This document shows positions 26,624-56,071 of a stretch of DNA of 57,756 nt, piece by piece. Under the pieces are notes generated by a model. The model did no database searches. It was not told the DNA's origin and worked only from the letters and a program-made list of their open reading frames with translations. Each line of letters opens with the position of its first letter. The first letter of the stretch is position 1. Position numbers and translations under genes: made by a program. The DNA comes from Escherichia phage vB_EcoS_PJ16: the sequence record OQ955832.1; one strand, 5' to 3'.

Positions 26624-27235
26624 TTAATGATAGACCTTGTGTACCTCTTGTTCCAGTTTATACGCGTCGGCGCCTTGTGGGAACGGATACGACACGAGTT
26701 TAACCACGGGGTGTGGAGTTCGTCGTTGTAGTTGTCGTAGTCGCTGTTTTAAGTCGTTTGTAATACCAACTTTAAGCAGAGTAGGACACTGTTTATCGTC
26801 AGTTAACACGTAGAGCGTTCCGTGTTCTGACGGGTTAAAACCTGTTTCAGCGCACTGGGGGCAACCTTGTTTCATTGAAGTGTGATTGTTCGGAGTCTGT
26901 TCAAACACACCGTGTTCTGAACAAATGATTTTCACAGGAGTACACCGATTAACATACTCCACCAACGAATAGTCGTAACGGTCCCCGTGAACTTCACGGG
27001 CGCGTGTAATAAACTCTTCTGTGGTTAAACGTTGTTGCTTAACTGCACATTGGGGACAACCTCTCCCGCGAACATGATTATTAGGAATCTGTTCAAACAC
27101 ACCATGTTCAGGACAGGTGATCTTCACAGGAGTACACCAATTCACATACACCACTAGCGAGTAATCGTATTTGTGCCCATGAACTTCACGGGCACGTGTG
27201 ATAAATTCTTCTGTGGTTAAACGTTTCCTACTCAT
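26624..27235 (-). CDS. T5orf172 (GIY-YIG-like) domain protein with duplicated zinc-ribbon domains
   Basis: Two tandem copies of EEFITRAREVHG-YDYS...GCPQCA; C-terminal GTLYVLTDD...KVGIT...EQEVH resembles T5orf172 domain. Confidence 0.55.
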   Translation of the reverse strand: MSRKRLTTEEFITRAREVHGHKYDYSLVVYVNWCTPVKITCPEHGVFEQIPNNHVRGRGCPQCAVKQQRLTTEEFITRAREVHGDRYDYSLVEYVNRCTPVKIICSEHGVFEQTPNNHTSMKQGCPQCAETGFNPSEHGTLYVLTDDKQCPTLLKVGITNDLKQRLRQLQRRTPHPVVKLVSYPFPQGADAYKLEQEVHKVYH

Positions 27236-37399: not shown

Positions 37400-37484
37400 T
37401 TCAACAGATGTTAATGACCAGTGGTTAGATATTTATTTCAAATGTGCAACTATTCACAACGCATTAGTAGACAGTCTTCAGTAA
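37236..37484 (+). CDS. o-spanin (Rz1-like lipoprotein)
   Basis: Out-of-frame overlap with i-spanin; signal peptide with lipobox-like INAC. Confidence 0.5.
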   Translation: MKRLILFFVTSVLLLNINACTTNELPKQKPVYQAALVQKCQTENLPRLNGLTGSDSTDVNDQWLDIYFKCATIHNALVDSLQ

Positions 37485-37697
37485 ATCTTCAACCGATACT
37501 TCAATCCACGATGCGGGAACCGGATATTCAGTCCGGTACATGAACAAGGATGTTCCTATCAACCCGTGTGGATCTGTTTTAATCCCTCGCATGTTCAACA
37601 ATGGAAAAAACTGTTCGCGTGTTTGTGGCAACCGTGCAAAGCGTCCTGTCGGGCGTTTAGCAGGATCCATAGGGTTGAATTCAACGATTGTGGACAT
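37464..37697 (-). CDS. Hypothetical protein (77 aa)
   Basis: Track ORF; last gene of leftward replication operon. Confidence 0.4.
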   Translation of the reverse strand: MSTIVEFNPMDPAKRPTGRFARLPQTREQFFPLLNMRGIKTDPHGLIGTSLFMYRTEYPVPASWIEVSVEDLLKTVY

Positions 37698-37703
37698 AGT
37701 GAG

Positions 37704-38144
37704 TTACTCCAGTGAATAGATTGTAATTTCGCAATCAATGTTGTTCAATTTTTCATAAATCAAAGGTCTGACTACTGACCATGATAAACCACCATTTGAA
37801 CAACCTAATCGTGGTAATGAAACTGAACGTATTTTAAAGTGTCTGATGACTTTTATAAGATCGTCCAAACCATATTCAATCCATTGTAATTGTGAAGGAT
37901 TACACCAATGCTCTTTAGTTGGAAAATTAATAATTATCTGATTGTTTTCAGATGTGACAAACATTTTTCCAACTTTTACATGGTGTTGTTCACACGCTTT
38001 TCGGTACTGTTTAAAATTGTCAGGAAAGGTTCTTTTAAACGCTAAAGCAATACCTTTACCCATTACACCAACGCAATTCACCGTGTTTACTAGAGCATGT
38101 GAATTGCTTTTAAGAAGGTCCCCCGTGACTTCTATTACTGACAT
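37704..38144 (-). CDS. Macrodomain protein, TARG1/DarG-like
   Basis: GDLLxxNSHALVNTVNCVGVMGKGIALAFK and PRLGCSNGGLSW resemble TARG1-type macrodomain signature. Confidence 0.7.
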   Translation of the reverse strand: MSVIEVTGDLLKSNSHALVNTVNCVGVMGKGIALAFKRTFPDNFKQYRKACEQHHVKVGKMFVTSENNQIIINFPTKEHWCNPSQLQWIEYGLDDLIKVIRHFKIRSVSLPRLGCSNGGLSWSVVRPLIYEKLNNIDCEITIYSLE

Positions 38145-38649
38145 AACAATAACTCCTGTACGCTTGTCGTTTTATTTTCTGATAGTCGGAAACTTTTACA
38201 GATCTCGTTTTACATTCACCGATACGATATGGGTCGAAAACAAACATCACCTGTGAACGGTCATTTCCTCCTGCTGGTAACCTGGTGTCAGGATCTACAA
38301 ACGCTATACGACCTTTAAACACCCATAGTTCCGAACAATGTGTCAGTGCTTTGTGAAACCAGTCTGCAGACGTCATAGCGTTCACGAGTAATAACGAACC
38401 AGTTCCTTGATGAACAGTGGTTATTATTTTATTAACCCATGGAGACGGATCGCTGTATGGTGGATTACACCAGACGAACCCACCACCATTACTTTGAACA
38501 ATCGAATTCCAGTCTTTATTCAGACTATCAGTGATAAACAACGAACATTTAGCGTTAGAACCATCGGTACACACATCAAGAACAAGTGGGAATTCACGAG
38601 AAACGTTATCAATAAAATCCCACGGTGTTTCCCAGTTGTCTTTAGCCAT
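38110..38649 (-). CDS. DNA N6-adenine methyltransferase (phage Dam type)
   Basis: Track ORF 38110-38766 trimmed to ATG 38649 (GGAGAG RBS); WETPWDF, VLDVCTD, NPPY motifs. Confidence 0.7.
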   Translation of the reverse strand: MAKDNWETPWDFIDNVSREFPLVLDVCTDGSNAKCSLFITDSLNKDWNSIVQSNGGGFVWCNPPYSDPSPWVNKIITTVHQGTGSLLLVNAMTSADWFHKALTHCSELWVFKGRIAFVDPDTRLPAGGNDRSQVMFVFDPYRIGECKTRSVKVSDYQKIKRQAYRSYCYVSNRSHGGPS

Positions 38650-38995
38650 GTTCCGGTACGCTCTCCACGCTGTAATAAACGGGGATACCCAGACGTTCAG
38701 CTTCTGCAATTTCCGCAATAGTCCCGGACGAACGACGATAATCAGGAAGCACCAGAACAGCGTCACAGCGGCGCATAATTTCTAACGTGCCTGACAGGTA
38801 GTATTCAGGTTGTATATTGCGTAAACCTCCGTCAAAGTCCCACAATTCGGTGTTCTTGTGAGGGATAACAGGGAACCACCCCGGACGTTGTAAAGCAAGT
38901 CGTTTACCTGCCTGTTCAGCGCGTGACACGTTACGGGATGTTTTAAGCGCACAGTCAGCACGATAAGGCCCGGCAATGTAACAGAGTTTAATCAT
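38642..38995 (-). CDS. Nucleoside 2-deoxyribosyltransferase-like protein
   Basis: Track ORF 38642-39085 trimmed to ATG 38995; IAGPY start and DAVLVLPDYRRSSGTIAEIAEAERLGIPV resemble the fold signature. Confidence 0.5.
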   Translation of the reverse strand: MIKLCYIAGPYRADCALKTSRNVSRAEQAGKRLALQRPGWFPVIPHKNTELWDFDGGLRNIQPEYYLSGTLEIMRRCDAVLVLPDYRRSSGTIAEIAEAERLGIPVYYSVESVPEHG

Positions 38996-39219
38996 GGTTG
39001 TTTTCCTGCATCTGTATAATGAGCTATGATTTCTTCCAAACAATTTATTGTGAAGAGAAATTTTAAACCAACCCGACATTCCCAAATATGTTCTCTCAGA
39101 TCTCTTGGGTCGGTGTACCCTCCGACAATAATAAAATTTTTAATCTCTTGTTTATATTTATCGGGAACGAAGTTGAAAAAGTCACGTTTAGTCTTAATTT
39201 CCCGACTGAATCTACTCAT
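38992..39219 (-). CDS. Hypothetical protein (75 aa)
   Basis: Track ORF, ATGA-coupled. Confidence 0.4.
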   Translation of the reverse strand: MSRFSREIKTKRDFFNFVPDKYKQEIKNFIIVGGYTDPRDLREHIWECRVGLKFLFTINCLEEIIAHYTDAGKQP

Positions 39220-39748
39220 GACGATTCATTCCTTCTAACATATCCCAGATAAGCGCAACACGACGCGGGTCAGTGCTGATAGTGTGTAAAGTTTCACATC
39301 CGTAATGCCATCCCCAGCGAACGGATAATTCTGACAGCAGATAACCACGGGAGTTAGCCAGTTCAGCCAGTTCACCAGGTTTGAACGTTGTTGTGTTAGG
39401 TTCTGTAAGAACACGAGTACCACAGATAGCGTCACTGATGCGCCACGGTTTCATCAGGTCATCAACTTTGTACCAGTTACTGATACTGATTTCAGACGTT
39501 CCCCAGCGTGCAGCCAGTTTCAGACGTTCCTGACGGGCCGGGAACATTGGCATTTGTGGTAAACGCAGTTGGGTCTGTTCTGCAGGTTCGAACATGTCAT
39601 CGTCTGTTAAACGAAATTCACCACGGTCATCAATATAAAAACCACGGGAACGACCATCACGGGTGAACCCGTCAACACGGTTGTAAATTTTACCGGGAGT
39701 AAAGACACCAATCGGTGAACCAGCTACAAATTTGTGTGAAGTATGCAT
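39212..39748 (-). CDS. Hypothetical protein (178 aa)
   Basis: Track ORF. Confidence 0.5.
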   Translation of the reverse strand: MHTSHKFVAGSPIGVFTPGKIYNRVDGFTRDGRSRGFYIDDRGEFRLTDDDMFEPAEQTQLRLPQMPMFPARQERLKLAARWGTSEISISNWYKVDDLMKPWRISDAICGTRVLTEPNTTTFKPGELAELANSRGYLLSELSVRWGWHYGCETLHTISTDPRRVALIWDMLEGMNRHE

Positions 39749-39787
39749 TGTTATCGCCTCAATAAGTTTTAAATAATTCTATACGGT

Positions 39788-41644
39788 TTACCGAAGTGGT
39801 GCAACGAGTTTTTCAGCTTCTTTGATGTAAAAATCATAATTGAGTGTTGCCCGGTTAAAACGTTTCATGTCGTTACATTCCGTGGTCAACCAACCTTTAC
39901 ACACGGACATGCGGCGTTCAGGCGCGTCAGGGTTCAGTTTCAGTGATTTTGCCAGCGGTGGCATGACTTTTGTCAACGGTGCACCATCTGTACTGACGTA
40001 ATAACGGGTAATGTTCTGAACCTGTTTATCACCCCATAATAACTTGCTGTTACGCGGTACTTTCGTCACCAACATAAAATCGTGAATGTCTTCGTGTGAT
40101 GTTATAAAATCACGAATGTCTTTATTGTGTACCAGTGCTGCTTCAGCCGCTTTTGCGACAACCTGCATACTGTGGTTTTGATGCCAACCAAGGTCAACAC
40201 TGTGGCAATAAGCACCTTTACGTTTAACTTTCTTACCACCTTCATAAACAGCGATGTAGTTATTTACATCGCGGATAAACATCACGTCATAAATCGCTTC
40301 TTCAAGCTGGAGTCTGGTTAATTTTTCCCACGCGTGACGAACCTGTTCTACTTGTCCGATAAATACTCGTGGTACGTAAACAGTAAGACCATCTGTGTTA
40401 GCCTGAATCATGGATAAACCAGGGATTTTCAGAAGTTCTTCAGCCAACATGCACAAAAGTAACTGTCCATTAATCGTAATAGCCATTGTATAAGCAGGAT
40501 CGTAGAATGGACTGTATACGTTATTACTGTCACCATACACACCGTTTAATGCCAGTTTTAACATTGCATTTTCTGGTGTACCTTTCGGGTAACTGGAACG
40601 CATGTCATAAACATTTTTATAAATGGTGCAAAATTGTTTTCCCAAATGTGCAGGGTAAAGTTCATTACTAATCGCAAGGTTTGGATAAAAACTGGCAACA
40701 TCCAAATCGATGATCACATAATTTTCAGTGGACCTTATAGTTTGAGATTCAATAGACCCGTGGATACCACCCGTACCAAAATCAAACGAGAACCCGTTAA
40801 TATCTGCGCTTAAATCAGTAAACACACCTTTTGTTTCAGTGATGACCTGTTGACGTAACCAGTTAAGAACACGATTAAATTCAGGCTGTTCAAAACGGAC
40901 ATAAGGGAAAATCACGCTGTTCAATGCGATTGATAGTCTGTGCGTCTGTCGTGGTTTTCTGCTACCCGGTTCGAAACATTGAATACCTGATTTTTCAAGT
41001 TCCATAATGAAATAGTCTTTACCGATTTTCGTGTCATTATGGTTCATGAAATTACGACCGTATTTAGCAGAAAGTTCACGACGAAAATCTATCAGCTTTT
41101 TACTGTGTTTATAAAACATCAAAGTCGCTTTCAAATCGTGTATCAGATATTGACGAAGCGTATCAATTTGAGAATTGGTTAAATAAGTCCCTGGTGTAAA
41201 CGGGAGGTCTTCAATGTTTTCCATTCTCATATTGAATTCAAGTGTTTTCAGACTTGTTCGTTTTGCCTGATTGTCGAAATGATGAATTTTATACAAATCA
41301 AGCTGGGGAACTATCCAGTCTTTTTCCCACACCATATGAGCAAAACGATTTTCATCACCAGCGTTAATTATCGAATCACCTTTTTTGTAAATGTCTGCGT
41401 TGGTGATATACATGATGTTGTTCAAAATAGAATGCTGAACAGGATAGTCGTAACCCAGATTGTTATAACCAACTTCTTCAGCACGATGTTCACGCAAATA
41501 TTCTGTGAACAGGTAAAAAGCCTGACGATCGTCGCGACGATGTGAAATCTCAAAAATATAAGGTGTTTCAGTTAATGCGTGAATAGCACCGAACAGGAAA
41601 ACATTAGGATAGTTTTCAATATCGTGAACGTAAGCATCTGACAT
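39788..41644 (-). CDS. DNA polymerase, family B-like (compact)
   Basis: 618 aa; motif A DLDVASFYPNL, motif B KLALNGVYG, motif C-like ANTDGL, exo I-like HDIEN. Confidence 0.75.
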   Translation of the reverse strand: MSDAYVHDIENYPNVFLFGAIHALTETPYIFEISHRRDDRQAFYLFTEYLREHRAEEVGYNNLGYDYPVQHSILNNIMYITNADIYKKGDSIINAGDENRFAHMVWEKDWIVPQLDLYKIHHFDNQAKRTSLKTLEFNMRMENIEDLPFTPGTYLTNSQIDTLRQYLIHDLKATLMFYKHSKKLIDFRRELSAKYGRNFMNHNDTKIGKDYFIMELEKSGIQCFEPGSRKPRQTHRLSIALNSVIFPYVRFEQPEFNRVLNWLRQQVITETKGVFTDLSADINGFSFDFGTGGIHGSIESQTIRSTENYVIIDLDVASFYPNLAISNELYPAHLGKQFCTIYKNVYDMRSSYPKGTPENAMLKLALNGVYGDSNNVYSPFYDPAYTMAITINGQLLLCMLAEELLKIPGLSMIQANTDGLTVYVPRVFIGQVEQVRHAWEKLTRLQLEEAIYDVMFIRDVNNYIAVYEGGKKVKRKGAYCHSVDLGWHQNHSMQVVAKAAEAALVHNKDIRDFITSHEDIHDFMLVTKVPRNSKLLWGDKQVQNITRYYVSTDGAPLTKVMPPLAKSLKLNPDAPERRMSVCKGWLTTECNDMKRFNRATLNYDFYIKEAEKLVAPLR

Positions 41645-41724
41645 AATAAAATCCTGATAAGTAAATGGGGCGCTATGGCCCCATGTCTGTTTAAAGCGGT
41701 ATGTCGTCCCAGTTCCAGTAACTA

Positions 41725-42588
41725 TCAGTAACCGTTACCGTTGAGAAAATTAGGGGCCGGGGTGGTCATTACCATATAACCGTTAGCGATCAGTTGTTCA
41801 TCGTTCCAACCTTGCGCAATAAACTGTTCGTAAGTTGCACCACCTGCTTTTTCAGTCATTACCTTCACAGGCGCTGCTACAGGTGCTGCCGCTGGTGTAG
41901 GCGCTGCTACAGGTGCTGCCGCTGGTATAGGCGCTGCTACAGGTGCTGCCGCTGGTGTAGGCGCTGCTACAGGTGCTGCCGCTGGTGTTACGCCGATCGG
42001 ACGTGCACCTTCAGGCATTGCAGGTGCAGCACCGAACACAGAGGCCGGAGCCGGACCGGAAATGATTTCTTCACCTGCATAAAGCAATTGCGCCATTTCC
42101 ATATTGATATACACACCAGCCTGATTACCTGTACGACCGTTTGCAACAGATGACCCGCTGATACGGTAGTAATACCCTTTTTTCGCCAGATTTTTATCAA
42201 TAACTGGCTGGTACGCTGCGTTATAAACAGGACACGCGTCAATAGCCACGTTGCGTGAGAAACCAATAACCCAGTGACCAGCATAACCCGTTTTACTCGC
42301 ATGTTTCGGATCGTCACCGTTAATAATTTTCCATGCGAAAGTTGGTTGTTGTGGTTCGCCGTTCACATAGTGTGAGTTAGCCGCTCGCATGATCGCCTGG
42401 AATACCGTACCCAGTTCACCTTGTTCTTCCCACCAGTTCGCCGCTGTTTTAGGAAACGCCAGACCAACCCACCAGTTATGTTTTTCAGGTGCTAACGGTT
42501 TATTTTCGTGGTCATGAGTGTTGATGTCGAAAAAAGAACCGCCAACCAGACGACCAACCGGAGTTACAAAAGATTCTTTCTGTGCCAT
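41725..42588 (-). CDS. ssDNA-binding-like protein (DUF2815-like, putative) with Pro/Ala repeat linker
   Basis: N-terminal VTPVGRLVGGSFF pattern; four PTPAAAPVAA repeats; sits between nuclease and polymerase. Confidence 0.4.
   Translation of the reverse strand: MAQKESFVTPVGRLVGGSFFDINTHDHENKPLAPEKHNWWVGLAFPKTAANWWEEQGELGTVFQAIMRAANSHYVNGEPQQPTFAWKIINGDDPKHASKTGYAGHWVIGFSRNVAIDACPVYNAAYQPVIDKNLAKKGYYYRISGSSVANGRTGNQAGVYINMEMAQLLYAGEEIISGPAPASVFGAAPAMPEGARPIGVTPAAAPVAAPTPAAAPVAAPIPAAAPVAAPTPAAAPVAAPVKVMTEKAGGATYEQFIAQGWNDEQLIANGYMVMTTPAPNFLNGNGY
41871..41990 (-). repeat. 30-bp tandem repeat x4 (in-frame, Pro/Ala-rich)
   Basis: gcgctgctacaggtgctgccgctggtgtag repeated with 1-2 substitutions. Confidence 0.85.
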
Positions 42589-42603
42589 GTTATTAACCTT
42601 CTT

Positions 42604-43749
42604 TTAAAGTGGACGTGCGCCAGTCGGCATCGTCACGGGTTTATTAAAAACAGATTCTGCCAGTGTGCTGTGACCTTTACGCGGGTCACTGTCAGGTACT
42701 AAAACTGGCTGACCTTCTGGTTTTGTAGTACACATGTCAACAAGTGCCGGGGGCAGTGATTTTTCCAGTGTTGACAACGGTTTTAATTTACGTTCGTACA
42801 ATGTTTCAGGGTTTACACCAAACATGGGTGCAGCACCGATCAGTTTTCCTTCGTCCGTAAGCTGACGTCGGGTTTGCTTTGTTGCGAGTTTAAAACCCGG
42901 TAAAGCCTTACCCATGCGAACAAAATGTAACCCCTGAGTATGTAACGCTGTTTTTGCTTCAGAAGAACGCGTATACAGTTCTTCAAGAAGTGCCAGACGA
43001 CGCGCTACTTCTTCTGGCGTAAGTGATGCTGGTGCATCAAGAACAGTAGCCAATTCTAAAACCCTCTCATACATCGCCGGACACATACCACGCGCCGGAC
43101 AGTAATGACAATGACTACCAACATTTAACGGTGCGTCTGGTTTATGTGCTTCGTTAAACCCGTGTTTAAATCGTTCAACCCAGTCCATCAATGTCACCCG
43201 GTTAAACTCCCATCGTCTTACAGGTCCGAGTGGGTGATAAGCCCGTGGCTGAACGATTGTGAACACAACACGCTTAACAGTATCAATACAACGTTGATCC
43301 AGTGCGTAATAGATCCCCTGTGAGTTATCAACTGCTTCAACTGCAACATGACCGTATTTATAATCCCATACGTAAAGCGTATCAGTATTAAAGTCATACC
43401 AGCGATAATCACAGGTTCCGTACTGACCGGGTAACAACCAGTCAATGTGAATGCGAACTTCTGAAAACAGCGGATCGAGTTTCGCACCAACTGAAAGAAC
43501 ATCTGCTATAAAGTCATCCGCGTAAATGTGCATGTCTTCAGTAACCTGAACACCGTTAGGAGCAAGACACGGCATTAATGGCGGTTTACCTTTAATCTTC
43601 TGTTCTAACACCCAGTGCCCGGCTGTACCTTCTTCAGCACTGGGTGACGATGGTTCTACATAGTCAATCCGCTGTGACAGTTGAACGCTACCCGGACAAG
43701 CTAACCAACGTTTTGATCCACTGGCACTAAAGGTAGCGTGACTTGTCAT
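42604..43749 (-). CDS. PD-(D/E)XK nuclease, DUF2800 (Cas4-like) family
   Basis: N-terminus HATFSASGSKRWLACPGS and C-terminal Cys cluster CHYCPARGMC. Confidence 0.65.
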   Translation of the reverse strand: MTSHATFSASGSKRWLACPGSVQLSQRIDYVEPSSPSAEEGTAGHWVLEQKIKGKPPLMPCLAPNGVQVTEDMHIYADDFIADVLSVGAKLDPLFSEVRIHIDWLLPGQYGTCDYRWYDFNTDTLYVWDYKYGHVAVEAVDNSQGIYYALDQRCIDTVKRVVFTIVQPRAYHPLGPVRRWEFNRVTLMDWVERFKHGFNEAHKPDAPLNVGSHCHYCPARGMCPAMYERVLELATVLDAPASLTPEEVARRLALLEELYTRSSEAKTALHTQGLHFVRMGKALPGFKLATKQTRRQLTDEGKLIGAAPMFGVNPETLYERKLKPLSTLEKSLPPALVDMCTTKPEGQPVLVPDSDPRKGHSTLAESVFNKPVTMPTGARPL

Positions 43750-44501
43750 CAGAATGCCCCACCCATTTGTTTAACAGACTCAGCCTGACCGACAATATTT
43801 TCAGCATCAGCAGGGGCAGCGTTGATACGTTCAATCAGTTCGATGATAGATTTCAGTTTCACCGGGTCATCAATTTGCATCACGTTCTGAGTTTCATACA
43901 GTCCCATGATTCGCTGACTTAACGGCGCAGCACGGTCACCCGTAATTTGTCCAAACATCTGCATCAGTGCTGACTGAAGAACCTGGGTGTTATAAACTTT
44001 AGCCGGATCCGTGGTTACAGGTTGCTCAGCAGGCGCGACTGGTGCTGCTGGTGCTGCTGGTACAACTGGAGCTACCGGAGCGGCAGGAACCGCTGGAGCA
44101 GGATCAACAGGTGCTACATAACCCGGTGCAAGTTCTGCAGGTCCAGTATAACGCCCTGCTTCAACTGCTTCAGCGATAAGTTCACGTTTAACACCGTCAA
44201 CAAACGCTTCATCCAGTTTTTTCTTCTGACGCCACAGACCGTCACCTTTGTTCAGGGATTTACTGTCAGTGTGGATACGCGGATCATGACGCAAACCCCA
44301 TTTGTCGAACTCTTCAGTGCTGGTTTCGTTATCGTCAACATCTTCAGTTGGTGCAGATACAACAGGTAGTGATTCAGCAACGACAGAAACGATTTCTTCT
44401 TTCGTAATCGGTGAGACACTTTTACCAGCAATCGCCGCTGCCAGATTGTTGATCGCAGTTTCCAGACCCGGAGCAGTTACAAGTAATTTAACTTCGAACA
44501 T
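43749..44501 (-). CDS. Hypothetical protein with Pro/Ala-rich linker (250 aa)
   Basis: Track ORF; first gene after promoters 44557/44620. Confidence 0.5.
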   Translation of the reverse strand: MFEVKLLVTAPGLETAINNLAAAIAGKSVSPITKEEIVSVVAESLPVVSAPTEDVDDNETSTEEFDKWGLRHDPRIHTDSKSLNKGDGLWRQKKKLDEAFVDGVKRELIAEAVEAGRYTGPAELAPGYVAPVDPAPAVPAAPVAPVVPAAPAAPVAPAEQPVTTDPAKVYNTQVLQSALMQMFGQITGDRAAPLSQRIMGLYETQNVMQIDDPVKLKSIIELIERINAAPADAENIVGQAESVKQMGGAF

Positions 44502-44676: not shown

Positions 44677-47355
44677 GTGAGTCAACAACCACTTCGTTAT
44701 TACCAACAAGATGCAGTTAACAACGTGCGCCAGGCATGGTCGAACGGTGCTAATGACGTGATTCTTGTGCTTCCCACTGGCTGTCATGCTAAAGACAGTG
44801 AAATTCTTATGTACAACGGTGATGTTATAAAAGTACAGGATGTTTTACCTGGTGATTTATTGATGGGTCGTGATTCATTACCACGAACCGTGTTAGCGTT
44901 AGCTCGTGGCAGAGAAGAAATGTTTGAAATCATCCCAGTCAAAGGGTCACCTTTCCGTGTAAATAAAAATCACATATTACATTTGATACATACTGAATCA
45001 AAAGAAGAAATAGACATTTCTGTAAGTGATTACTTACAGAAATCAAATTATTTCAAACATTGCCACAAGTTGCTTCGTACGGGGGTTGATTTCGAATATC
45101 GCGAACCACCGACTTTAGACCCGTGGTTTGCCGGGATTATGATCGGTGATGGTAGTTACAAATCAGGTACACCACGTCTGACAAATGCAGACTCAAGTAT
45201 TTTAGAAAAGGCTACTTTTTACGCAAACCTTTTTGGATGTGTCTGCAAAGATGTAAAAGGTAACAACTGTGTTACACGTTATTTCGGTTATCCCGGGTCA
45301 TCGCGTTCGGTTAGTAACCCGTTGAGCGATGCGATGAAATCTGATGGATTGTGGGGGAAAATCGCACATGAAAAATCAATACCTGATGTGTATAAAAAAG
45401 GAAGCAGAAACACACGTTTAAACGTTCTGGCAGGATTAATTGATAGCGACGGATATATTTCACATAAGGGCGTTGATTTTGTGTCCAAATCACAGCAGTT
45501 AGCCGCTGATTTAGTGTTCGTTGCAAGAAGCCTGGGGAAAGCCGCGTATTACAAAGCCTGTGTTAAATCATGTCAAACGGGTAATGCAAACATTTACTAC
45601 AGAGTGAGTATTAGTGGCGATTTAAGCGATGTACCATTCGTTAGAAAACATGGTGATTTAACGAGAAAGCAGAAGAAAAATCATTTAGTAACGGGCTTTT
45701 CTGTTCGGTCTGTTGGTGAAGATAATTTTTATGGTTTTATGGTTAACGGTGACAATCTTTATCTTACGTCAGACTTCATCATCCATCATAACAGTGGTAA
45801 AACACGTACTATGGCTGAACTACTAAAATCCGACGGTGTAAAAGTCATCCAGGCACACCGCAAAGAACTAGTTAGTCAAATCGCAATGGCTGTTGCTCGC
45901 CAGGGGTTAGCACACAGATTTATAGCGCAAAAAGATACTGTTAAGTTTGCAACTAATCAGCAGATGAAAACGCTTGGTTACAGTACCTATTCCCCCGGTG
46001 CTGACATCGTTATTACCAGTTCACAAACGTTAAGAACAAAACAGTACGAACGATGGTACAACGACGTGTCTCTTGTATTCAGCGACGAAGCGCATCACCT
46101 GGTGCGTGGCACACAGTGGGGAGACTGCCGGGAAAAATTCCCTAACGCTAAAGGTCTGGGTGTTACAGCCACACCGATCCGTGCTGACGGTAAAGGCCTG
46201 GGTCGTCATGCATCAGGTTACGCAGATCAGATGATCATTGGTCCGTCAATGCGTGAATTAATCAGTCAACAACACCTGGCTGATTATCGTCTGATCATGG
46301 CTGAAACAGACCTGGAATTAACCGCAGAAATGATTTCTCATACGACGGGTGATTACAAACCATCTGCGTTAAAAAAAGCGATGGAAGATTCAAACATTGT
46401 TGGTGATACCGTTAGTACGTGGAAAACGTATGCAGATGGTTTACTCACTGTTGTGTTTACGTGTGATGTGGATTCTGCTGAAGCACTTGCAAAAGAATTT
46501 CGCGATGCTGGCATTCCTGCAGAGGCGATCAGTTCACGAAACAGTAATCAGGAACGAGCGGATATTCTGGAACGTTTTGAACGACGTAAAACACTCGTGC
46601 TATGTAACAACGATTTATTCGGTGAAGGATACGACTGTCCGGCAATGGAATGTGCAGTAATGGATCGCCCCACAGAATCTTACTCTTTGTTTGTACAACA
46701 AATGGGTCGACCATTGCGTTTCAAACCCGGTAAAAAAGCACTGATTATTGATAAAGTCGGTAATGTTCGTCGATTTCTGGCCCGTGGTTTTCCACTTCCT
46801 GATCAGCATTACAACTGGTCTTTAGATGACCGTGACCGTCGTTCATCTAACAGCAGTGGGAACAGTAATACAACATGTACAAACAAGGGTGATCCTGATA
46901 ATGGTATTCCACCGTGTCTGAAGCCTTATCCGTCTGGTCTTCCGTGCTGCCCGTATTGTGGTCATGTTCCTGAAAAAGCCGAACGCTCAGGCCCGGATCG
47001 TGTAGAAGGTAATTTACGTGAACTGACACCTGAAGAACTGGAAGAATTACGCCGGGCAGTGGTGATAATCGACCGTGACCCTGTTGCAGTAAAAGAACAA
47101 ATGTTAAACGCGGGTGCACCCCCTGTTGCAGCTTACAGTGCAATGAAAAACATTCAGGCAATGAACGATGCACAGCGTAAGTTACGCAGCATGATCACCA
47201 CATGGGCAGGTATTCAGCGTGATAAAGGTATACCCGTTGATGACGCTTACAAGATGTTTTACAGGGTGTTTGGTGTTGATGTACTTAGTGCACAGGGCTT
47301 ACGTACTCGTGAAGCTAATGAACTCGCCGCAAGGGTTGCAAGTTCATTAATCTGA
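44677..47355 (+). CDS. SF2 DEAH-type DNA helicase, intein-containing precursor
   Basis: GTG start with AAGGA RBS; Walker A split as LPTG / SGKT by intein; DEAHH, TATP, QQMGRPLR motifs; C-terminal CxxC zinc ribbon. Confidence 0.85.
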   Translation: MSQQPLRYYQQDAVNNVRQAWSNGANDVILVLPTGCHAKDSEILMYNGDVIKVQDVLPGDLLMGRDSLPRTVLALARGREEMFEIIPVKGSPFRVNKNHILHLIHTESKEEIDISVSDYLQKSNYFKHCHKLLRTGVDFEYREPPTLDPWFAGIMIGDGSYKSGTPRLTNADSSILEKATFYANLFGCVCKDVKGNNCVTRYFGYPGSSRSVSNPLSDAMKSDGLWGKIAHEKSIPDVYKKGSRNTRLNVLAGLIDSDGYISHKGVDFVSKSQQLAADLVFVARSLGKAAYYKACVKSCQTGNANIYYRVSISGDLSDVPFVRKHGDLTRKQKKNHLVTGFSVRSVGEDNFYGFMVNGDNLYLTSDFIIHHNSGKTRTMAELLKSDGVKVIQAHRKELVSQIAMAVARQGLAHRFIAQKDTVKFATNQQMKTLGYSTYSPGADIVITSSQTLRTKQYERWYNDVSLVFSDEAHHLVRGTQWGDCREKFPNAKGLGVTATPIRADGKGLGRHASGYADQMIIGPSMRELISQQHLADYRLIMAETDLELTAEMISHTTGDYKPSALKKAMEDSNIVGDTVSTWKTYADGLLTVVFTCDVDSAEALAKEFRDAGIPAEAISSRNSNQERADILERFERRKTLVLCNNDLFGEGYDCPAMECAVMDRPTESYSLFVQQMGRPLRFKPGKKALIIDKVGNVRRFLARGFPLPDQHYNWSLDDRDRRSSNSSGNSNTTCTNKGDPDNGIPPCLKPYPSGLPCCPYCGHVPEKAERSGPDRVEGNLRELTPEELEELRRAVVIIDRDPVAVKEQMLNAGAPPVAAYSAMKNIQAMNDAQRKLRSMITTWAGIQRDKGIPVDDAYKMFYRVFGVDVLSAQGLRTREANELAARVASSLI
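44782..45792 (+). mobile_element. Intein with double-LAGLIDADG homing endonuclease in helicase P-loop
   Basis: Begins with Cys after LPTG, ends HN before Ser; LAGLIDSDG and FAGIMIGDG motifs; 337 codons in frame. Confidence 0.8.
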
Positions 47356-51228: not shown

Positions 51229-51905
51229 AAGTCGTCTGGTCGTTATTCGATGGTTCCGGGATTATGGGTTTACCGTGGGCTAAGGCTGGCTATCAGGTTT
51301 ATTGCTTTAATGCTGATTCCGGTAATCACGGGGAATATTTTATTAAAGCTGATCACCCCAATCTTCATTACGTTAATCAATGGATTGATCCACAGTTTGC
51401 AATTAAGCAGGAAATACTGGGAACACCTTTACCGTCAATTATTTTTGGTTTTCCGGATTGCACCCTGTTTGCTCAAAGCGGTTCGCAACATAACCGGGAT
51501 GACGCTGAACTACAGTATGCACTGGCAAACGCAAAACTGATCCGGGAACTCGGAGAACGTTATAACGTACCCTGGATGGTGGAAAACCCTGTCGGTGCTT
51601 TATCGCGTCCTGAAATGATGGGGACACCTGACGCTTATTTTCATCCGTGGGAATATGGCGGTTATATGACAACAGATGATAAACCTTTTCACCCTAAAAT
51701 GCCGATGTTTGACGGATACACGAAGAAAACATGTCTGTGGTTCGGTAACGGTTTCAGAATGCCTGAAAAACGTCCCGGACCGATTAATATTGGTTTCTTC
51801 TGGGGCTGGAAATATCTGGGTGGTAAATCTGAAACAACTAAACAGTTACGTTCATTAACCCCGCGTGGCTTTGCTCGCGCTGTATTTGAGGCTAATAAAC
51901 AATGA
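51225..51905 (+). CDS. C5-cytosine methyltransferase-like protein (short, atypical)
   Basis: Motif I-like LFDGSG, motif IV-like GFPDC, motif VI-like ENPVG; only 226 aa, no obvious target-recognition domain. Confidence 0.5.
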   Translation: MKVVWSLFDGSGIMGLPWAKAGYQVYCFNADSGNHGEYFIKADHPNLHYVNQWIDPQFAIKQEILGTPLPSIIFGFPDCTLFAQSGSQHNRDDAELQYALANAKLIRELGERYNVPWMVENPVGALSRPEMMGTPDAYFHPWEYGGYMTTDDKPFHPKMPMFDGYTKKTCLWFGNGFRMPEKRPGPINIGFFWGWKYLGGKSETTKQLRSLTPRGFARAVFEANKQ

Positions 51906-52297
51906 TAATAGTCGTTACAGGCGGTCGTGACTTCAACGACAGAACAGCGGTATTTTCAGCATTAGGGTTACTTCACAAACAATTCCCGGTTACCGAACTG
52001 ATTGAAGGCGGTGCATCAGGTGTTGATAACCTGTGTAAGCAATGGGCGCAATTACACGGTATTCCTGTACGTAGTTGCCCGGCAGCATGGGACGATCTGA
52101 CTGTACCAGGTGCGGTTGTAAAACAGGGTAAGCATGGGCCTTATAACGCTGTTGCAGGTCATCAACGTAATCAGGCAATGTTAGAGGGTGAACCACGCCC
52201 TACATACGGTGTTGTGTTCCCCGGTGGGCGTGGTACTGCCGACATGCATCGTCGTATGTTGAAAGCTGGTTTAACTGTGTGGGTTCCATATCCTTAA
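51902..52297 (+). CDS. SLOG/LOG-like Rossmann-fold protein (DUF2493-like)
   Basis: VVTGGRDF, GGASGVD and PGGRGTADM motifs. Confidence 0.5.
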   Translation: MIIVVTGGRDFNDRTAVFSALGLLHKQFPVTELIEGGASGVDNLCKQWAQLHGIPVRSCPAAWDDLTVPGAVVKQGKHGPYNAVAGHQRNQAMLEGEPRPTYGVVFPGGRGTADMHRRMLKAGLTVWVPYP

Positions 52298-55501: not shown

Positions 55502-56071
55502 ATGACACCTGAACAATTCGCAACAGCAGCACACGGTGATCAACTTCGTAAGTATACCAACGACCCATATGTGAACCACTGCCGGAACGTTGCTGAACTG
55601 GTTAAACGCTATGGTGGTACGCCGGATATGGTTACCGCTGCCTGGCTGCATGACGTCGTTGAAGATACGCCCGTGACCGTGGGTGATGTGTGTTCGCAGT
55701 TCGGTGAGACTGTGGCACGTTATGTTGATCAGCTTACTGATGTGAGTCGTCCACACCACGGCAACCGTGTTAAGCGTAAAGCACGGGACATCGACCATTT
55801 ATCACGGGCTGAACCTGTGGTGAAAACTATAAAACTGTGTGATCTGCTGGATAACACATCTTCAATTGACCGACACGATCCGAAGTTTGCTGTAACATAC
55901 CTGGCTGAAAAACAACTCATGCTTGCTCACCTGTCAGACGCCAGTAATCAGGAGTTATACGCGCTTGTTGAGCGTGAATTGTTTAAAGCCAAATACAAAC
56001 TAACGAACGTCCAGTTAACCGCGTTTGACAAACACTACGACGCACTGGTTAAAGCGATGGGGGAGTTGTGA
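55502..56071 (+). CDS. HD-domain phosphohydrolase, SpoT/RelA-hydrolase-like
   Basis: AAHGDQLRK, H-x3-VA and AAWLHDVVEDT match the (p)ppGpp-hydrolase HD signature. Confidence 0.65.
   Translation: MTPEQFATAAHGDQLRKYTNDPYVNHCRNVAELVKRYGGTPDMVTAAWLHDVVEDTPVTVGDVCSQFGETVARYVDQLTDVSRPHHGNRVKRKARDIDHLSRAEPVVKTIKLCDLLDNTSSIDRHDPKFAVTYLAEKQLMLAHLSDASNQELYALVERELFKAKYKLTNVQLTAFDKHYDALVKAMGEL

What the first reader, a model, noticed from the sequence alone, without database searches (positions are those of the whole stretch)
37704..38144. Phage-encoded TARG1/DarG-like macrodomain in the replication operon: candidate counter-defence against ADP-ribosylation
The 146-aa protein carries the macrodomain signature (GDLL..NSHALVNTVNCVGVMGKGIALAFK ... 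PRLGCSNGGLSW) in the TARG1/DarG arrangement. DarG-type macrodomains remove ADP-ribose from DNA modified by DarT toxins. A free-standing copy co-transcribed with DNA polymerase, SSB-like, nuclease and Dam genes could reverse host ADP-ribosylation of phage DNA or proteins. No cognate toxin gene is present, which argues against a phage TA pair and for an anti-defence role.
Basis: partly seen in the sequence, partly recalled or inferred. Interest (0 to 1): 0.8.

Follow-up and report, generated by a model that had tools for sequence, protein, structure and literature searches.

The report
Phage orphan DarG-like ADP-ribose eraser
This coliphage carries a small stand-alone copy of the enzyme half of the bacterial DarG antitoxin, most likely to strip defensive ADP-ribose tags off its own DNA. 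The prediction is sound, but the same trick was recently shown experimentally in two other phage groups.

Summary
Window 37704-38144, minus strand, encodes a 146-aa macrodomain with a strong ribosome-binding site.

It is specifically DarG2-type. It is 48-52% identical to the solved DarG macrodomains (E about 1e-41). The predicted structure matches them at TM 0.94. The catalytic Lys, the Asn and the thymine-stacking Trp are all present. It covers only the N-terminal half of the DarG models.

No DarT toxin gene and no DarG C-terminal (DarT-binding) domain occur anywhere in the window.

The gene is an exact 447-bp cassette between the Dam gene and a conserved 77-aa ORF, at the end of the replication gene cluster. 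Near-identical siblings (Bas82, AVIO78A) lack it. Diverged relatives carry 80%-identical copies in the same slot, and dN/dS is 0.07-0.09.

The most likely function is an orphan antitoxin that removes DarT2-made ADP-ribose from thymidines in phage ssDNA.

This kind is already known as AdfM, described in T4 (Tk.4, 2025 preprint) and in chimalliviruses (Cell Rep 2026). The window protein is a third, independently acquired lineage. It is 22% and 37% identical to those two and much closer to DarG itself.

Novelty: new member of a known kind. Interest is moderate.

The parts
37704..38144 (-). Stand-alone DarG2-type macrodomain gene (146 aa plus stop), a candidate anti-DarT factor of the AdfM kind. 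Functional residues: N23, K30, T76, K77 (catalytic), H79, W80, G114, N117, G118, G119.
   Evidence: ORF confirmed. Pfam Macro 9e-20. PADLOC DarG 4.4e-69 over model positions 4-144 of 329. PDB 5m3i/5m31 at about 1e-41. AF2 model pLDDT 95.7 and Foldseek TM 0.94 to 5m3e/5m3i. Residue mapping. dN/dS 0.07-0.09.
38153..38157 (-). Shine-Dalgarno AGGAG, 8 nt upstream of the macrodomain ATG. In relatives that lack the gene, this same site serves the 77-aa ORF.
   Evidence: Sequence read. Alignment with Bas82 and AVIO78A.
37699..38145 (-). The 447-bp gene cassette that is present here and absent from the near-identical phages Bas82 and AVIO78A. It is bounded by TATGTC direct repeats (38140-38145 and 37693-37698). 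GC is 34% against 44% for the window.
   Evidence: DNA alignment A3. Annotations of Bas82 and AVIO78A. Composition.
37707..37710 (-). GGAG inside the 3' end of the macrodomain gene. It replaces the ribosome-binding site of the downstream 77-aa ORF.
   Evidence: Sequence read.
37464..37697 (-). Conserved 77-aa ORF of unknown function, the last gene of the minus-strand cluster. It is present whether or not the macrodomain gene is, so it is not a dedicated partner.
   Evidence: No Pfam hit.
38110..38649 (-). Dam-type DNA adenine methyltransferase, immediately upstream. Its 3' end overlaps the macrodomain start by 35 nt, and the cassette lengthens its C-terminus by 6 aa.
   Evidence: Pfam Dam 2.6e-31. 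179-aa gene call in the 99-100%-identical contig L013. Alignment.
38642..44501 (-). Upstream genes of the same strand cluster (context only). In order: DUF4406/DUF7768 nucleoside 2-deoxyribosyltransferase-like; a 75-aa Y16B-like ORF; a 178-aa ORF; DNA polymerase (39788-41644); Gp2.5-like ssDNA-binding/annealing protein (41725-42588 as listed); DUF2800/PD-(D/E)XK exonuclease (42604-43749); a 250-aa ORF (43749-44501). A promoter-like site lies at 44562-44534.

Best explanation
The gene encodes an orphan, antitoxin-like DNA ADP-ribosylglycohydrolase, a stand-alone copy of the catalytic macrodomain of the DarG2 antitoxin.

When the phage infects a host carrying a DarTG2 system, the DarT2 toxin ADP-ribosylates thymidines in single-stranded phage DNA and blocks replication. 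The phage enzyme is made together with the replication proteins. It binds the ADP-ribose moiety through its two glycine-rich loops and stacks the modified thymine on W80. It uses K77, assisted by N23, to cleave the ribose-thymine bond, which restores normal DNA.

It lacks the DarG C-terminal domain. It therefore acts purely as an eraser and not by binding DarT.

What is shown: family, fold, residues, orphan status, accessory-gene behaviour and purifying selection. What is inferred: substrate (T-ADPr on ssDNA), expression timing and the anti-DarTG2 phenotype.
For: Family and fold:
- 52%, 51% and 48% identity to the Mtb, phiMa and Taq DarG2 macrodomains.
- PADLOC DarG 231 bits and NCBIfam DarG equivalog 225 bits, both over the macrodomain half only.
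- Foldseek top hits are the DarG macrodomains, at TM 0.94.
- Among the 149 best representatives in the exhaustive search, at least 52 are full-length DarG with the C-terminal domain, at 53-59% identity.

Residues:
- Equivalents of Taq K80, N22, K29, T79 and W83 are invariant in 60 homologues.
- The two deviations, A35 and S116, are common natural variants.

Published support:
- The DarG macrodomain alone is sufficient to neutralise DarT (PMC5179494).
- Stand-alone phage macrodomains that are far less DarG-like protect against DarTG2. T4 Tk.4 scores 36 bits on the same DarG model, and a chimallivirus AdfM homologue scores 138 bits.
- E. coli DarTG2 restricts siphophages such as T5 and SECphi18.

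Gene behaviour:
- No DarT gene and no DarG C-terminal domain in the window.
- dN/dS is 0.07-0.09.
- It behaves as an accessory gene in a fixed slot next to a methyltransferase.
- The nearest stand-alone relatives also sit in phage replication modules.
Against: - No experiment has been done on this protein.
- Macrodomains of the TARG1/DarG class can also act on protein-linked or RNA-linked ADP-ribose, so substrate specificity cannot be read from sequence alone.
- No E. coli genome in the collection holds a DNA-level relative of the gene. No link to a particular host DarTG2 system could therefore be drawn.
- Most relatives in the phage group do without the gene (only 1 of 23 related GenBank records has it). 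The benefit must be conditional.
- Co-transcription with the replication genes is inferred only. A hairpin lies between the annealing-protein gene and the polymerase gene.
Confidence: 0.72

Rival explanations
1. It is a broader ADP-ribose eraser aimed at a different ADP-ribosylation threat. Candidates are protein or RNA ADP-ribosylation by other host defence ADP-ribosyltransferases (for example CmdTAC-type mRNA modification), enzymes of competing phages, or a DarT-like enzyme with another target base.
For: The related TARG1 acts on both protein-linked and DNA-linked ADP-ribose. Some stand-alone bacterial homologues sit next to non-DarT neighbours in possible conflict islands.
Against: The protein is about 50% identical to enzymes shown to act on T-ADPr DNA and only 24% identical to TARG1. 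It keeps the DarG-specific Trp, which is Ala in TARG1. NADAR enzymes, not macrodomains, handle guanine-linked ADPr.
Confidence: 0.15
2. It is a metabolite-processing 'phosphatase/deacetylase' macrodomain, as the PHROG, GenBank and JGI annotations suggest. On this view it hydrolyses ADP-ribose-1''-phosphate or O-acetyl-ADP-ribose, for example in tRNA repair or against sirtuin/NAD-based defences.
For: PHROG 335 is labelled 'phosphatase'. JGI names homologues 'O-acetyl-ADP-ribose deacetylase'. The window also encodes a YAcAr/SLOG protein and a nucleoside 2-deoxyribosyltransferase-like protein.
Against: These names are generic labels transferred by annotation. The MacroD/YmdB-type NCBIfam model scores 29.5 bits against a cutoff of 246. 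The Poa1p phosphatases match only at about 1e-4, against 1e-41 for DarG. The T4 protein with the same 'phosphatase' label turned out to be an anti-DarTG2 factor.
Confidence: 0.06
3. It is the remnant, or the antitoxin half, of a phage-borne DarTG system, i.e. a defence or superinfection-exclusion module like the complete DarTG2 in Thermus phage phiMa.
For: Complete DarTG2 pairs do occur on phage records (phiMa; probably MT837167).
Against: There is no trace of DarT or of the DarG C-terminal half in any frame of the window. The cassette boundaries are exact, with 6 nt between the stop codon and the next gene. Its sister lineages are stand-alone proteins in 88 of 100 bootstraps. The gene is under strong purifying selection.
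Confidence: 0.03
4. It is a neutral hitch-hiking or decaying insert with no current function.
For: It is absent from most relatives without obvious harm. Its GC content is low.
Against: dN/dS is 0.07-0.09 across variants whose synonymous sites are near saturation. The catalytic residues are intact and the ribosome-binding site is strong. The reading frame is intact in all six contigs examined.
Confidence: 0.02

Closest known systems
DarG2 antitoxin macrodomain (Thermus aquaticus and M. tuberculosis DarG; PDB 5M3E, 5M31, 5M3I; PMC5179494)
   Same: 48-52% identity. Predicted fold at TM 0.94. Catalytic Lys, Asn, thymine-stacking Trp and both glycine-rich ADPr-binding loops are present. In DarG the macrodomain alone suffices to neutralise DarT.
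   Different: No C-terminal DarT-binding domain (about 180 aa). No adjacent darT gene. Encoded by a lytic phage. Below the NCBIfam equivalog cutoff (225 against 250 bits) because only half of the model is covered.
AdfM of chimalliviruses (PhiKZ gp104, PhiPA3 gp108 and others; Cell Rep 2026, PMC13309987)
   Same: A phage-encoded stand-alone DarG2-like macrodomain with the same catalytic Asn and Lys. The predicted job is the same: removing DarT2 ADP-ribose from DNA.
   Different: Only 37% identity to the chimallivirus homologue RAY gp152, and a separate clade (distance 1.35 against 0.62-0.70 to DarG2 macrodomains). The host phage is a 58-kb siphophage with no phage nucleus, so no nuclear import is involved. 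DarG HMM score is 231 against 138 bits.
AdfM of T4 (Tk.4; HIDEN-SEQ preprint 10.1101/2025.11.20.689424)
   Same: A macrodomain of a nucleus-less E. coli phage. T4 Tk.4 is required for growth on E. coli carrying DarTG2.
   Different: 22% identity (BLASTP E=9e-6). Tk.4 scores only 36 bits on the DarG model. Different genomic context: an early-gene cluster next to tk and vs, not a replication module.
AdfN (T4 30.3 and other phage NADAR proteins; PMC11825919)
   Same: The same strategy: a phage carries an orphan copy of the enzymatic antitoxin of a DarTG system and erases ADP-ribose from its DNA.
   Different: An unrelated fold (NADAR). Specific for guanine-linked ADPr made by DarT1, and inactive against DarTG2.
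TARG1/OARD1 (human; PDB 4J5S)
   Same: The same macrodomain subclass and a catalytic lysine at the equivalent position. TARG1 also hydrolyses thymidine-linked ADPr.
   Different: 24% identity and TM 0.85. TARG1 has Ala where DarG and this protein have the Trp. It is a eukaryotic protein with protein-linked substrates as well.

Membership tests
Macrodomain (Pfam PF01661) | Match to the family HMM above the gathering score | tested here: met
   71.2 bits against a cutoff of 22, E=9e-20, covering profile positions 1-116 of 118.
DarG2 antitoxin (DarTG2 toxin-antitoxin system) | DarG-type macrodomain with the catalytic Lys (Taq K80) and Asn (N22) | tested here: met
   K77 and N23 align to K80 and N22 and are invariant in 60 homologues. 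PADLOC DarG E=4.4e-69. TM 0.94 to 5m3e/5m3i.
DarG2 antitoxin (DarTG2 toxin-antitoxin system) | Trp (Taq W83) proposed to stack on the modified thymine; this position is Ala in TARG1 | tested here: met
   W80 is present and invariant in 60 of 60 homologues.
DarG2 antitoxin (DarTG2 toxin-antitoxin system) | C-terminal DarT-binding domain (full length about 330-360 aa) | tested here: not met
   The protein is 146 aa. It matches only positions 4-144 of 329 (PADLOC) and 4-147 of 338 (NCBIfam). A tblastn with the phiMa DarG C-terminal half against the window gave a best E of 6.3.
DarG2 antitoxin (DarTG2 toxin-antitoxin system) | Adjacent darT (DUF4433) toxin gene | tested here: not met
   No DarT hit among 66 ORFs of at least 110 aa. 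Six-frame tblastn with phiMa DarT gave a best E of 0.41. The neighbours are Dam and a 77-aa ORF.
DarG2 antitoxin (DarTG2 toxin-antitoxin system) | NCBIfam equivalog NF048014 score at or above the curated cutoff | tested here: not met
   225.3 bits against a cutoff of 250. The shortfall is explained by the missing C-terminal half.
DarG2 antitoxin (DarTG2 toxin-antitoxin system) | Hydrolysis of thymidine-linked ADP-ribose on ssDNA | not testable with these tools
   Needs an in vitro de-ADP-ribosylation assay.
AdfM (phage anti-DarT factor, macrodomain) | Phage-encoded stand-alone macrodomain homologous to the DarG2 macrodomain, without a toxin | tested here: met
   The window is a 9NA-like/Sashavirus genome. 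The protein is a stand-alone DarG-type macrodomain and no DarT is present.
AdfM (phage anti-DarT factor, macrodomain) | Orthology to a validated AdfM (PhiKZ gp104 lineage or T4 Tk.4) | tested here: not met
   37% identity to the chimallivirus homologue RAY gp152 and 22% to T4 Tk.4. It forms a separate clade in the NJ tree. AdfM is a functional name, and the two validated AdfMs are not orthologous to each other either.
AdfM (phage anti-DarT factor, macrodomain) | Protects the phage against DarTG2 and neutralises DarT2 toxicity | not testable with these tools
   Needs plaque assays and toxin-rescue assays.
TARG1/OARD1 | Closest sequence and structure relationship to TARG1 | tested here: not met
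   TARG1 comes second to DarG: E=2e-6 against 9e-42 by sequence, and TM 0.85 at 24% identity against TM 0.94 at 47-50% identity by structure.
MacroD/YmdB-type or Poa1p-type ADPr-1''-phosphatase ('phosphatase' annotation) | Match to the family model above its cutoff | tested here: not met
   NF001666 scores 29.5 bits against a cutoff of 246. Poa1p structures match only at E of about 6e-5 to 3e-4.

The most novel reading that the evidence does not exclude
This protein may represent a third, independently co-opted lineage of phage macrodomain anti-DarT factors, and the one closest to DarG itself.

The lineage is embedded in phage DNA-replication modules, including many uncultured phages. Within 9NA-like phages it switches on and off at one fixed slot by precise cassette loss or gain. 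If so, it would be the commonest natural form of anti-DarTG2 counter-defence. The window phage and Bas82 would then form a ready-made, near-isogenic plus/minus pair.

A more radical reading is also not excluded: the lineage may erase an ADP-ribose mark other than DarT2's, meaning a different base, RNA, or a replication protein.
Probability: 0.4. Interest if true: 0.5.

Novelty: new member of a known kind. Interest (0 to 1): 0.35.

Why it matters
DarTG2 systems occur in pathogenic E. coli, Klebsiella and Pseudomonas and restrict therapeutic-type phages. Knowing which phages carry an eraser helps predict host range.

This case extends the AdfM concept in three ways:
- It adds an ordinary siphophage to T4 and the nucleus-forming jumbo phages.
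- It shows that the enzyme can be an almost unmodified copy of the antitoxin's catalytic half.
- It offers a natural plus/minus pair for a clean test. The window phage and BDX09P1 carry the gene. BASEL phage Bas82 lacks it and is 97-100% identical in the flanking genes.

It also flags that hundreds of phage genes labelled 'phosphatase' or 'Appr-1-p processing' are probably counter-defence genes. In this survey 632 phage records held a homologue.

Tried and rejected
- **Donor in E. coli.** A blastn of the gene against 5,426 complete E. coli genomes found no match, so no recent capture from a host DarG can be shown.
- **Donor on plasmids.** A tblastn against 72,556 plasmids gave 55% identity at best, and none of the hits was enterobacterial.
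- **Cryptic toxin.** A PADLOC and Pfam bulk scan of 66 ORFs, plus six-frame tblastn with phiMa DarT and the DarG C-terminal half, found nothing.
- **DarT next to bacterial stand-alone homologues (L005, L006).** The upstream 351-aa and 229-aa proteins have no PADLOC hit. These contexts remain uninterpreted.
- **Resolving the origin by tree.** The Sashavirus clade is robust (100/100). Its sister is a pair of stand-alone proteins on short, uninformative contigs, with only 60/100 support. Full-length DarG2 and stand-alone proteins are about equidistant at 53-59% identity. The ultimate source is therefore unresolved.
- **The substitutions A35 (Taq Q34) and S116 (Taq G119; the G119E mutant is impaired).** I considered them as signs of inactivation and rejected this. 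They occur in 14 and 12 of 60 homologues respectively.
- **Promoter and terminator scan.** The counts do not differ from shuffled sequence, so it gives no independent evidence on transcription units.
- **BASEL paper.** It reports no DarTG phenotype for Bas82.

Full report
**1. Observation**

Window 37704..38144 holds an ATG-initiated ORF of 146 codons on the minus strand. The plus-strand frame is full of stops. An AGGAG Shine-Dalgarno sequence lies 8 nt upstream of the start codon.

The window is a 9NA-like siphophage of the Nonanavirus/Sashavirus group. It is about 96-97% identical over this region to Escherichia phages KarinMuster_Bas82 and AVIO78A and to Sashavirus BDX09P1.

**2. What the protein is**

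Sequence evidence:

| Search | Result |
|---|---|
| Pfam Macro PF01661 | E=9e-20, 71 bits (cutoff 22) |
| PADLOC DarG | E=4.4e-69, 231 bits, model positions 4-144 of 329 |
| NCBIfam DarG equivalog NF048014 | 225 bits (cutoff 250), positions 4-147 of 338 |
| NCBIfam MacroD/YmdB-type NF001666 | 29.5 bits (cutoff 246) |
| PDB, M. tuberculosis DarG macrodomain (5m3i) | E=9e-42 |
| PDB, T. aquaticus DarG macrodomain (5m31/5m3e) | E=1e-40 |
| PDB, Thermosipho DarTG | E=1e-23 |
| PDB, TARG1 | E=2e-6 |
| PDB, Poa1p-type phosphatases | E about 1e-4 |

Structure evidence. An AlphaFold2 model built on 60 homologues has pLDDT 95.7 and pTM 0.91. Foldseek ranks the DarG macrodomains first, at TM 0.94, rmsd 1.1-1.4 A and 47-50% identity. 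TARG1 comes next at TM 0.85 and 24% identity.

Residue evidence. Jankevicius et al. 2016 (PMC5179494) define the functional residues of Taq DarG:
- K80 is catalytic; the K80A mutant is inactive.
- N22 is the next most important.
- K29 and G119 also matter.
- T79, G117, N120 and G121 bind ADP-ribose.
- W83 is proposed to stack on the thymine, and is Ala in TARG1.

The window protein has K77, N23, K30, T76, G114, N117, G118 and W80 at the equivalent positions. K, N, T and W are invariant in 60 of 60 homologues. The two differences, A35 for Q34 and S116 for G119, are frequent natural variants (14 and 12 of 60), so they do not signal inactivation.

The protein is therefore a catalytically intact, DarG2-type macrodomain.

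**3. What it is not**

It is not a DarG antitoxin of a TA pair. It lacks the roughly 180-aa C-terminal DarT-binding half, and nothing in the window encodes that half or DarT.
- The PADLOC scan of all 66 ORFs of at least 110 aa returned DarG once and DarT never. Pfam agrees.
- As positive controls I used Thermus phage phiMa, which carries a complete pair: DarT at 1.6e-73 and full-length DarG at 5e-124.
- Six-frame tblastn of phiMa DarT against the window gave a best E of 0.41. The phiMa DarG C-terminal half gave a best E of 6.3.

**4. Genomic anatomy**

The gene is the second-to-last gene of a tightly packed minus-strand cluster. In transcription order the cluster encodes:
- a 250-aa protein;
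- a DUF2800/PD-(D/E)XK exonuclease;
- a Gp2.5-like ssDNA-binding/annealing protein;
- DNA polymerase;
- a 178-aa protein;
- a Y16B-like or NinX-position protein;
- a DUF4406 nucleoside 2-deoxyribosyltransferase-like protein;
- Dam;
- the macrodomain;
- a conserved 77-aa ORF.

The cluster converges on the lysis cassette. Dam overlaps the macrodomain start by 35 nt, and 6 nt separate the macrodomain stop from the next ATG. Co-transcription is the natural reading but is only inferred. The consensus promoter and terminator scan was no better than shuffled sequence.

Alignment with Bas82 and AVIO78A shows that they lack the gene precisely. Their sequence ...AGGAGTTATTGT|TATGTCCACAATCG... is interrupted in the window by a 447-bp cassette (37699-38145) bounded by TATGTC on both sides. 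The cassette takes over the old ribosome-binding site and brings a new GGAG for the downstream ORF. Either a precise deletion between the 6-bp repeats or an insertion would give this pattern. The cassette has 34.2% GC against 43.6% for the window, which is the 1.2nd percentile of windows of equal size. This is a foreign-origin signature.

**5. Evolutionary behaviour**

- Among 50,697 phage records, only Sashavirus BDX09P1 has the same protein (99.3%). The next best hits are about 51% identical.
- In assemblies, the 99% variant (L013-L015) and two diverged variants occupy the same slot between a methyltransferase and the 77-aa ORF. The diverged variants are P0002 (80%, L003) and P0003 (79%, L011). 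The slot is the same even where the methyltransferase (N6_N4 type in place of Dam), the endolysin and the tailspike differ.
- The divergence of the macrodomain (80%) matches that of the flanking core genes (77-90%). Macro-less Bas82 has flanks 97-100% identical to the window. The gene is thus an old resident of this slot that is sporadically lost or exchanged.
- dN/dS is 0.07-0.09 between variants whose synonymous sites are near saturation. The gene encodes a working protein.

**6. Wider family**

- The 90%-clustered database holds 1,560 homologues at E<=1e-10. The best 120 are almost all proteins of 145-180 aa.
- The exhaustive search of 1.84 billion representatives gives 10,929 hits at E<=1e-3 and 542 at E<=1e-30. 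Of the best 149, 69 are 300-380 aa, at least 52 carry a DarG C-terminal domain, and 25 are 180 aa or less.
- Full-length DarG2 and stand-alone proteins are about equally distant from the window protein, at 53-59% identity.
- In a rough NJ tree the Sashavirus clade is monophyletic in 100 of 100 bootstraps. Its sister group is made only of stand-alone proteins in 88 of 100. The chimallivirus homologue is far away, at distance 1.35 against 0.62-0.70.
- The three nearest stand-alone relatives with usable context all sit in phage-like replication modules. One is directly upstream of DNA polymerase A (L016). One lies with DnaG-DnaB, dUTPase, a methyltransferase and NrdD (L017). One lies between RecA and a 5'-3' exonuclease (L018). 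A Mucilaginibacter copy lies in a PRTRC mobile-element cassette.
- No close relative was found in E. coli genomes or on enterobacterial plasmids.

**7. Mechanism**

The best-supported explanation is an orphan-antitoxin counter-defence. DarT2 of host DarTG2 systems ADP-ribosylates thymidines in ssDNA and blocks phage replication. The phage enzyme, made with the replication proteins, removes the mark using K77 and N23, with W80 stacking on the base.

The published evidence for this logic is direct:
- The DarG macrodomain alone neutralises DarT.
- E. coli DarTG2 restricts the siphophages T5 and SECphi18.
- Two stand-alone phage macrodomains have been validated as anti-DarTG2 factors, both named AdfM. 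One is T4 Tk.4 (HIDEN-SEQ preprint). The other is PhiKZ gp104 and its chimallivirus relatives, with in vitro T-ADPr removal (PMC13309987).

The window protein is far more DarG-like than either validated AdfM. It scores 231 bits on the DarG model. A chimallivirus homologue scores 138 bits and T4 Tk.4 scores 36 bits. Its identity to those two is 37% and 22% respectively.

Rival readings are less likely for the reasons given in the rivals section. They are a broader eraser, a metabolite phosphatase or deacetylase, a remnant of a phage DarTG, and a neutral insert.

**8. Comparison and novelty**

In function it resembles AdfM, and in sequence it resembles the DarG2 macrodomain.
- It fails membership of the DarG antitoxin family on three tested defining features: the C-terminal domain, an adjacent DarT gene, and the equivalog cutoff.
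- It is not orthologous to either validated AdfM.
- It fits the functional class 'phage macrodomain anti-DarT factor'.

It is therefore a new member, and an independent lineage, of a known kind. The chimallivirus paper stated that no macrodomain Adf had been reported before. I found no paper that mentions this gene in the Nonanavirus/Sashavirus group.

**9. Verdict**

Its value is practical:
- It is a very DarG-like eraser in an ordinary coliphage.
- It has a natural plus/minus sibling pair, BDX09P1 or the window phage against BASEL Bas82, which allows a decisive test.
- It suggests that the many phage 'phosphatase' macrodomains (632 records) deserve re-annotation.

Interest is 0.35.

Noticed in passing
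window 44677-47355 (+): The 892-aa SF2 helicase (ResIII, Helicase_C) carries an intein with a homing endonuclease (Hom_end_hint at aa 36-116; LAGLIDADG_3/Hom_end at aa 247-315). The Bas82 orthologue is annotated at 553 aa, which implies no intein. This is a second presence/absence polymorphism between these near-identical phages.
   Followed up: partly
window 51902-52297 (+): A 131-aa protein with a YAcAr (YspA/cpYpsA-related SLOG) domain, E=1e-19. A faint YAcAr hit also occurs in L016, an unrelated phage contig that carries a stand-alone DarG-like macrodomain. Whether the SLOG protein is linked to ADP-ribose biology was not examined.
   Followed up: no
window 55502-56071 (+): A 189-aa HD_4 (RelA/SpoT-type HD hydrolase-like) protein, E=1.5e-15.
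   Followed up: no
window 26624-27235 (-): A 203-aa ORF with T5orf172/MUG113 (GIY-YIG-like), DUF723 and zinc-finger domains. It lies on the opposite strand inside the plus-strand tail gene block and is probably a free-standing homing endonuclease.
   Followed up: no
window, ORFs not localised: The PADLOC bulk scan gave single-ORF hits to PbeA (9e-18), type IV methyl-directed restriction enzyme (1.5e-17) and homing endonuclease models. I did not determine which ORFs these are. Some probably correspond to the HNH, LAGLIDADG or GIY-YIG genes above.
   Followed up: no
window 38110-38130 (-): The cassette changes the Dam C-terminus...YVHNR* in Bas82 against ...YVSNRSHGGPS* here, which is 6 aa longer. 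The reason is that the Dam frame now reads into the macrodomain gene.
   Followed up: yes
L008 3306-5062 (Thermus phage phiMa, MH673674): This phage carries a complete DarTG2 system: DarT of 205 aa (PADLOC 1.6e-73) and full-length DarG of 357 aa (5e-124). The DarG is annotated only as 'ADP-ribose 1-phosphate phosphatase related'.
   Followed up: partly
L021 2332-4008 (MT837167, faecal 'Bacteriophage sp.' scaffold): A 211-aa ORF is followed by a 342-aa ORF whose N-terminus is 48% identical to the window protein. This is probably another complete DarTG2 pair on an unverified phage scaffold.
   Followed up: no
L009 1-5453 (Mucilaginibacter-type contig): A stand-alone DarG-like macrodomain (P0117) is the last gene of a PRTRC cassette (PRTRC_E, Prok_Ub, Prok-E2_D, ThiF) next to SSB. 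This is a mobile-element context, where it might serve as an anti-defence gene.
   Followed up: no
L006 5315-12271 (GCA_900471375.1 contig): A 178-aa DarG-like macrodomain overlaps an upstream 229-aa gene with no family hit. It is followed by a weak radical-SAM/pVip-like protein, a cREC_REC protein and an HATPase_c_3 protein. This is a possible uncharacterised conflict island.
   Followed up: partly
L018 6551-11997: The phage-like replication module that carries a stand-alone macrodomain also holds two IS605 OrfB/TnpB (Cas12f-like) genes, and a CsrA homologue immediately upstream of the macrodomain.
   Followed up: no
phage collection; L019 8923-9390 (T4 tk.4): 632 of 50,697 phage records hold a homologue of this macrodomain. 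They include phiEco32-like coliphages (among them BASEL Bas90) and Erwinia, Klebsiella and Serratia jumbo phages. Most are annotated 'phosphatase' or 'Appr-1-p processing'. T4 Tk.4 carries the same 'phosphatase' label and is now known to be an anti-DarTG2 factor.
   Followed up: partly
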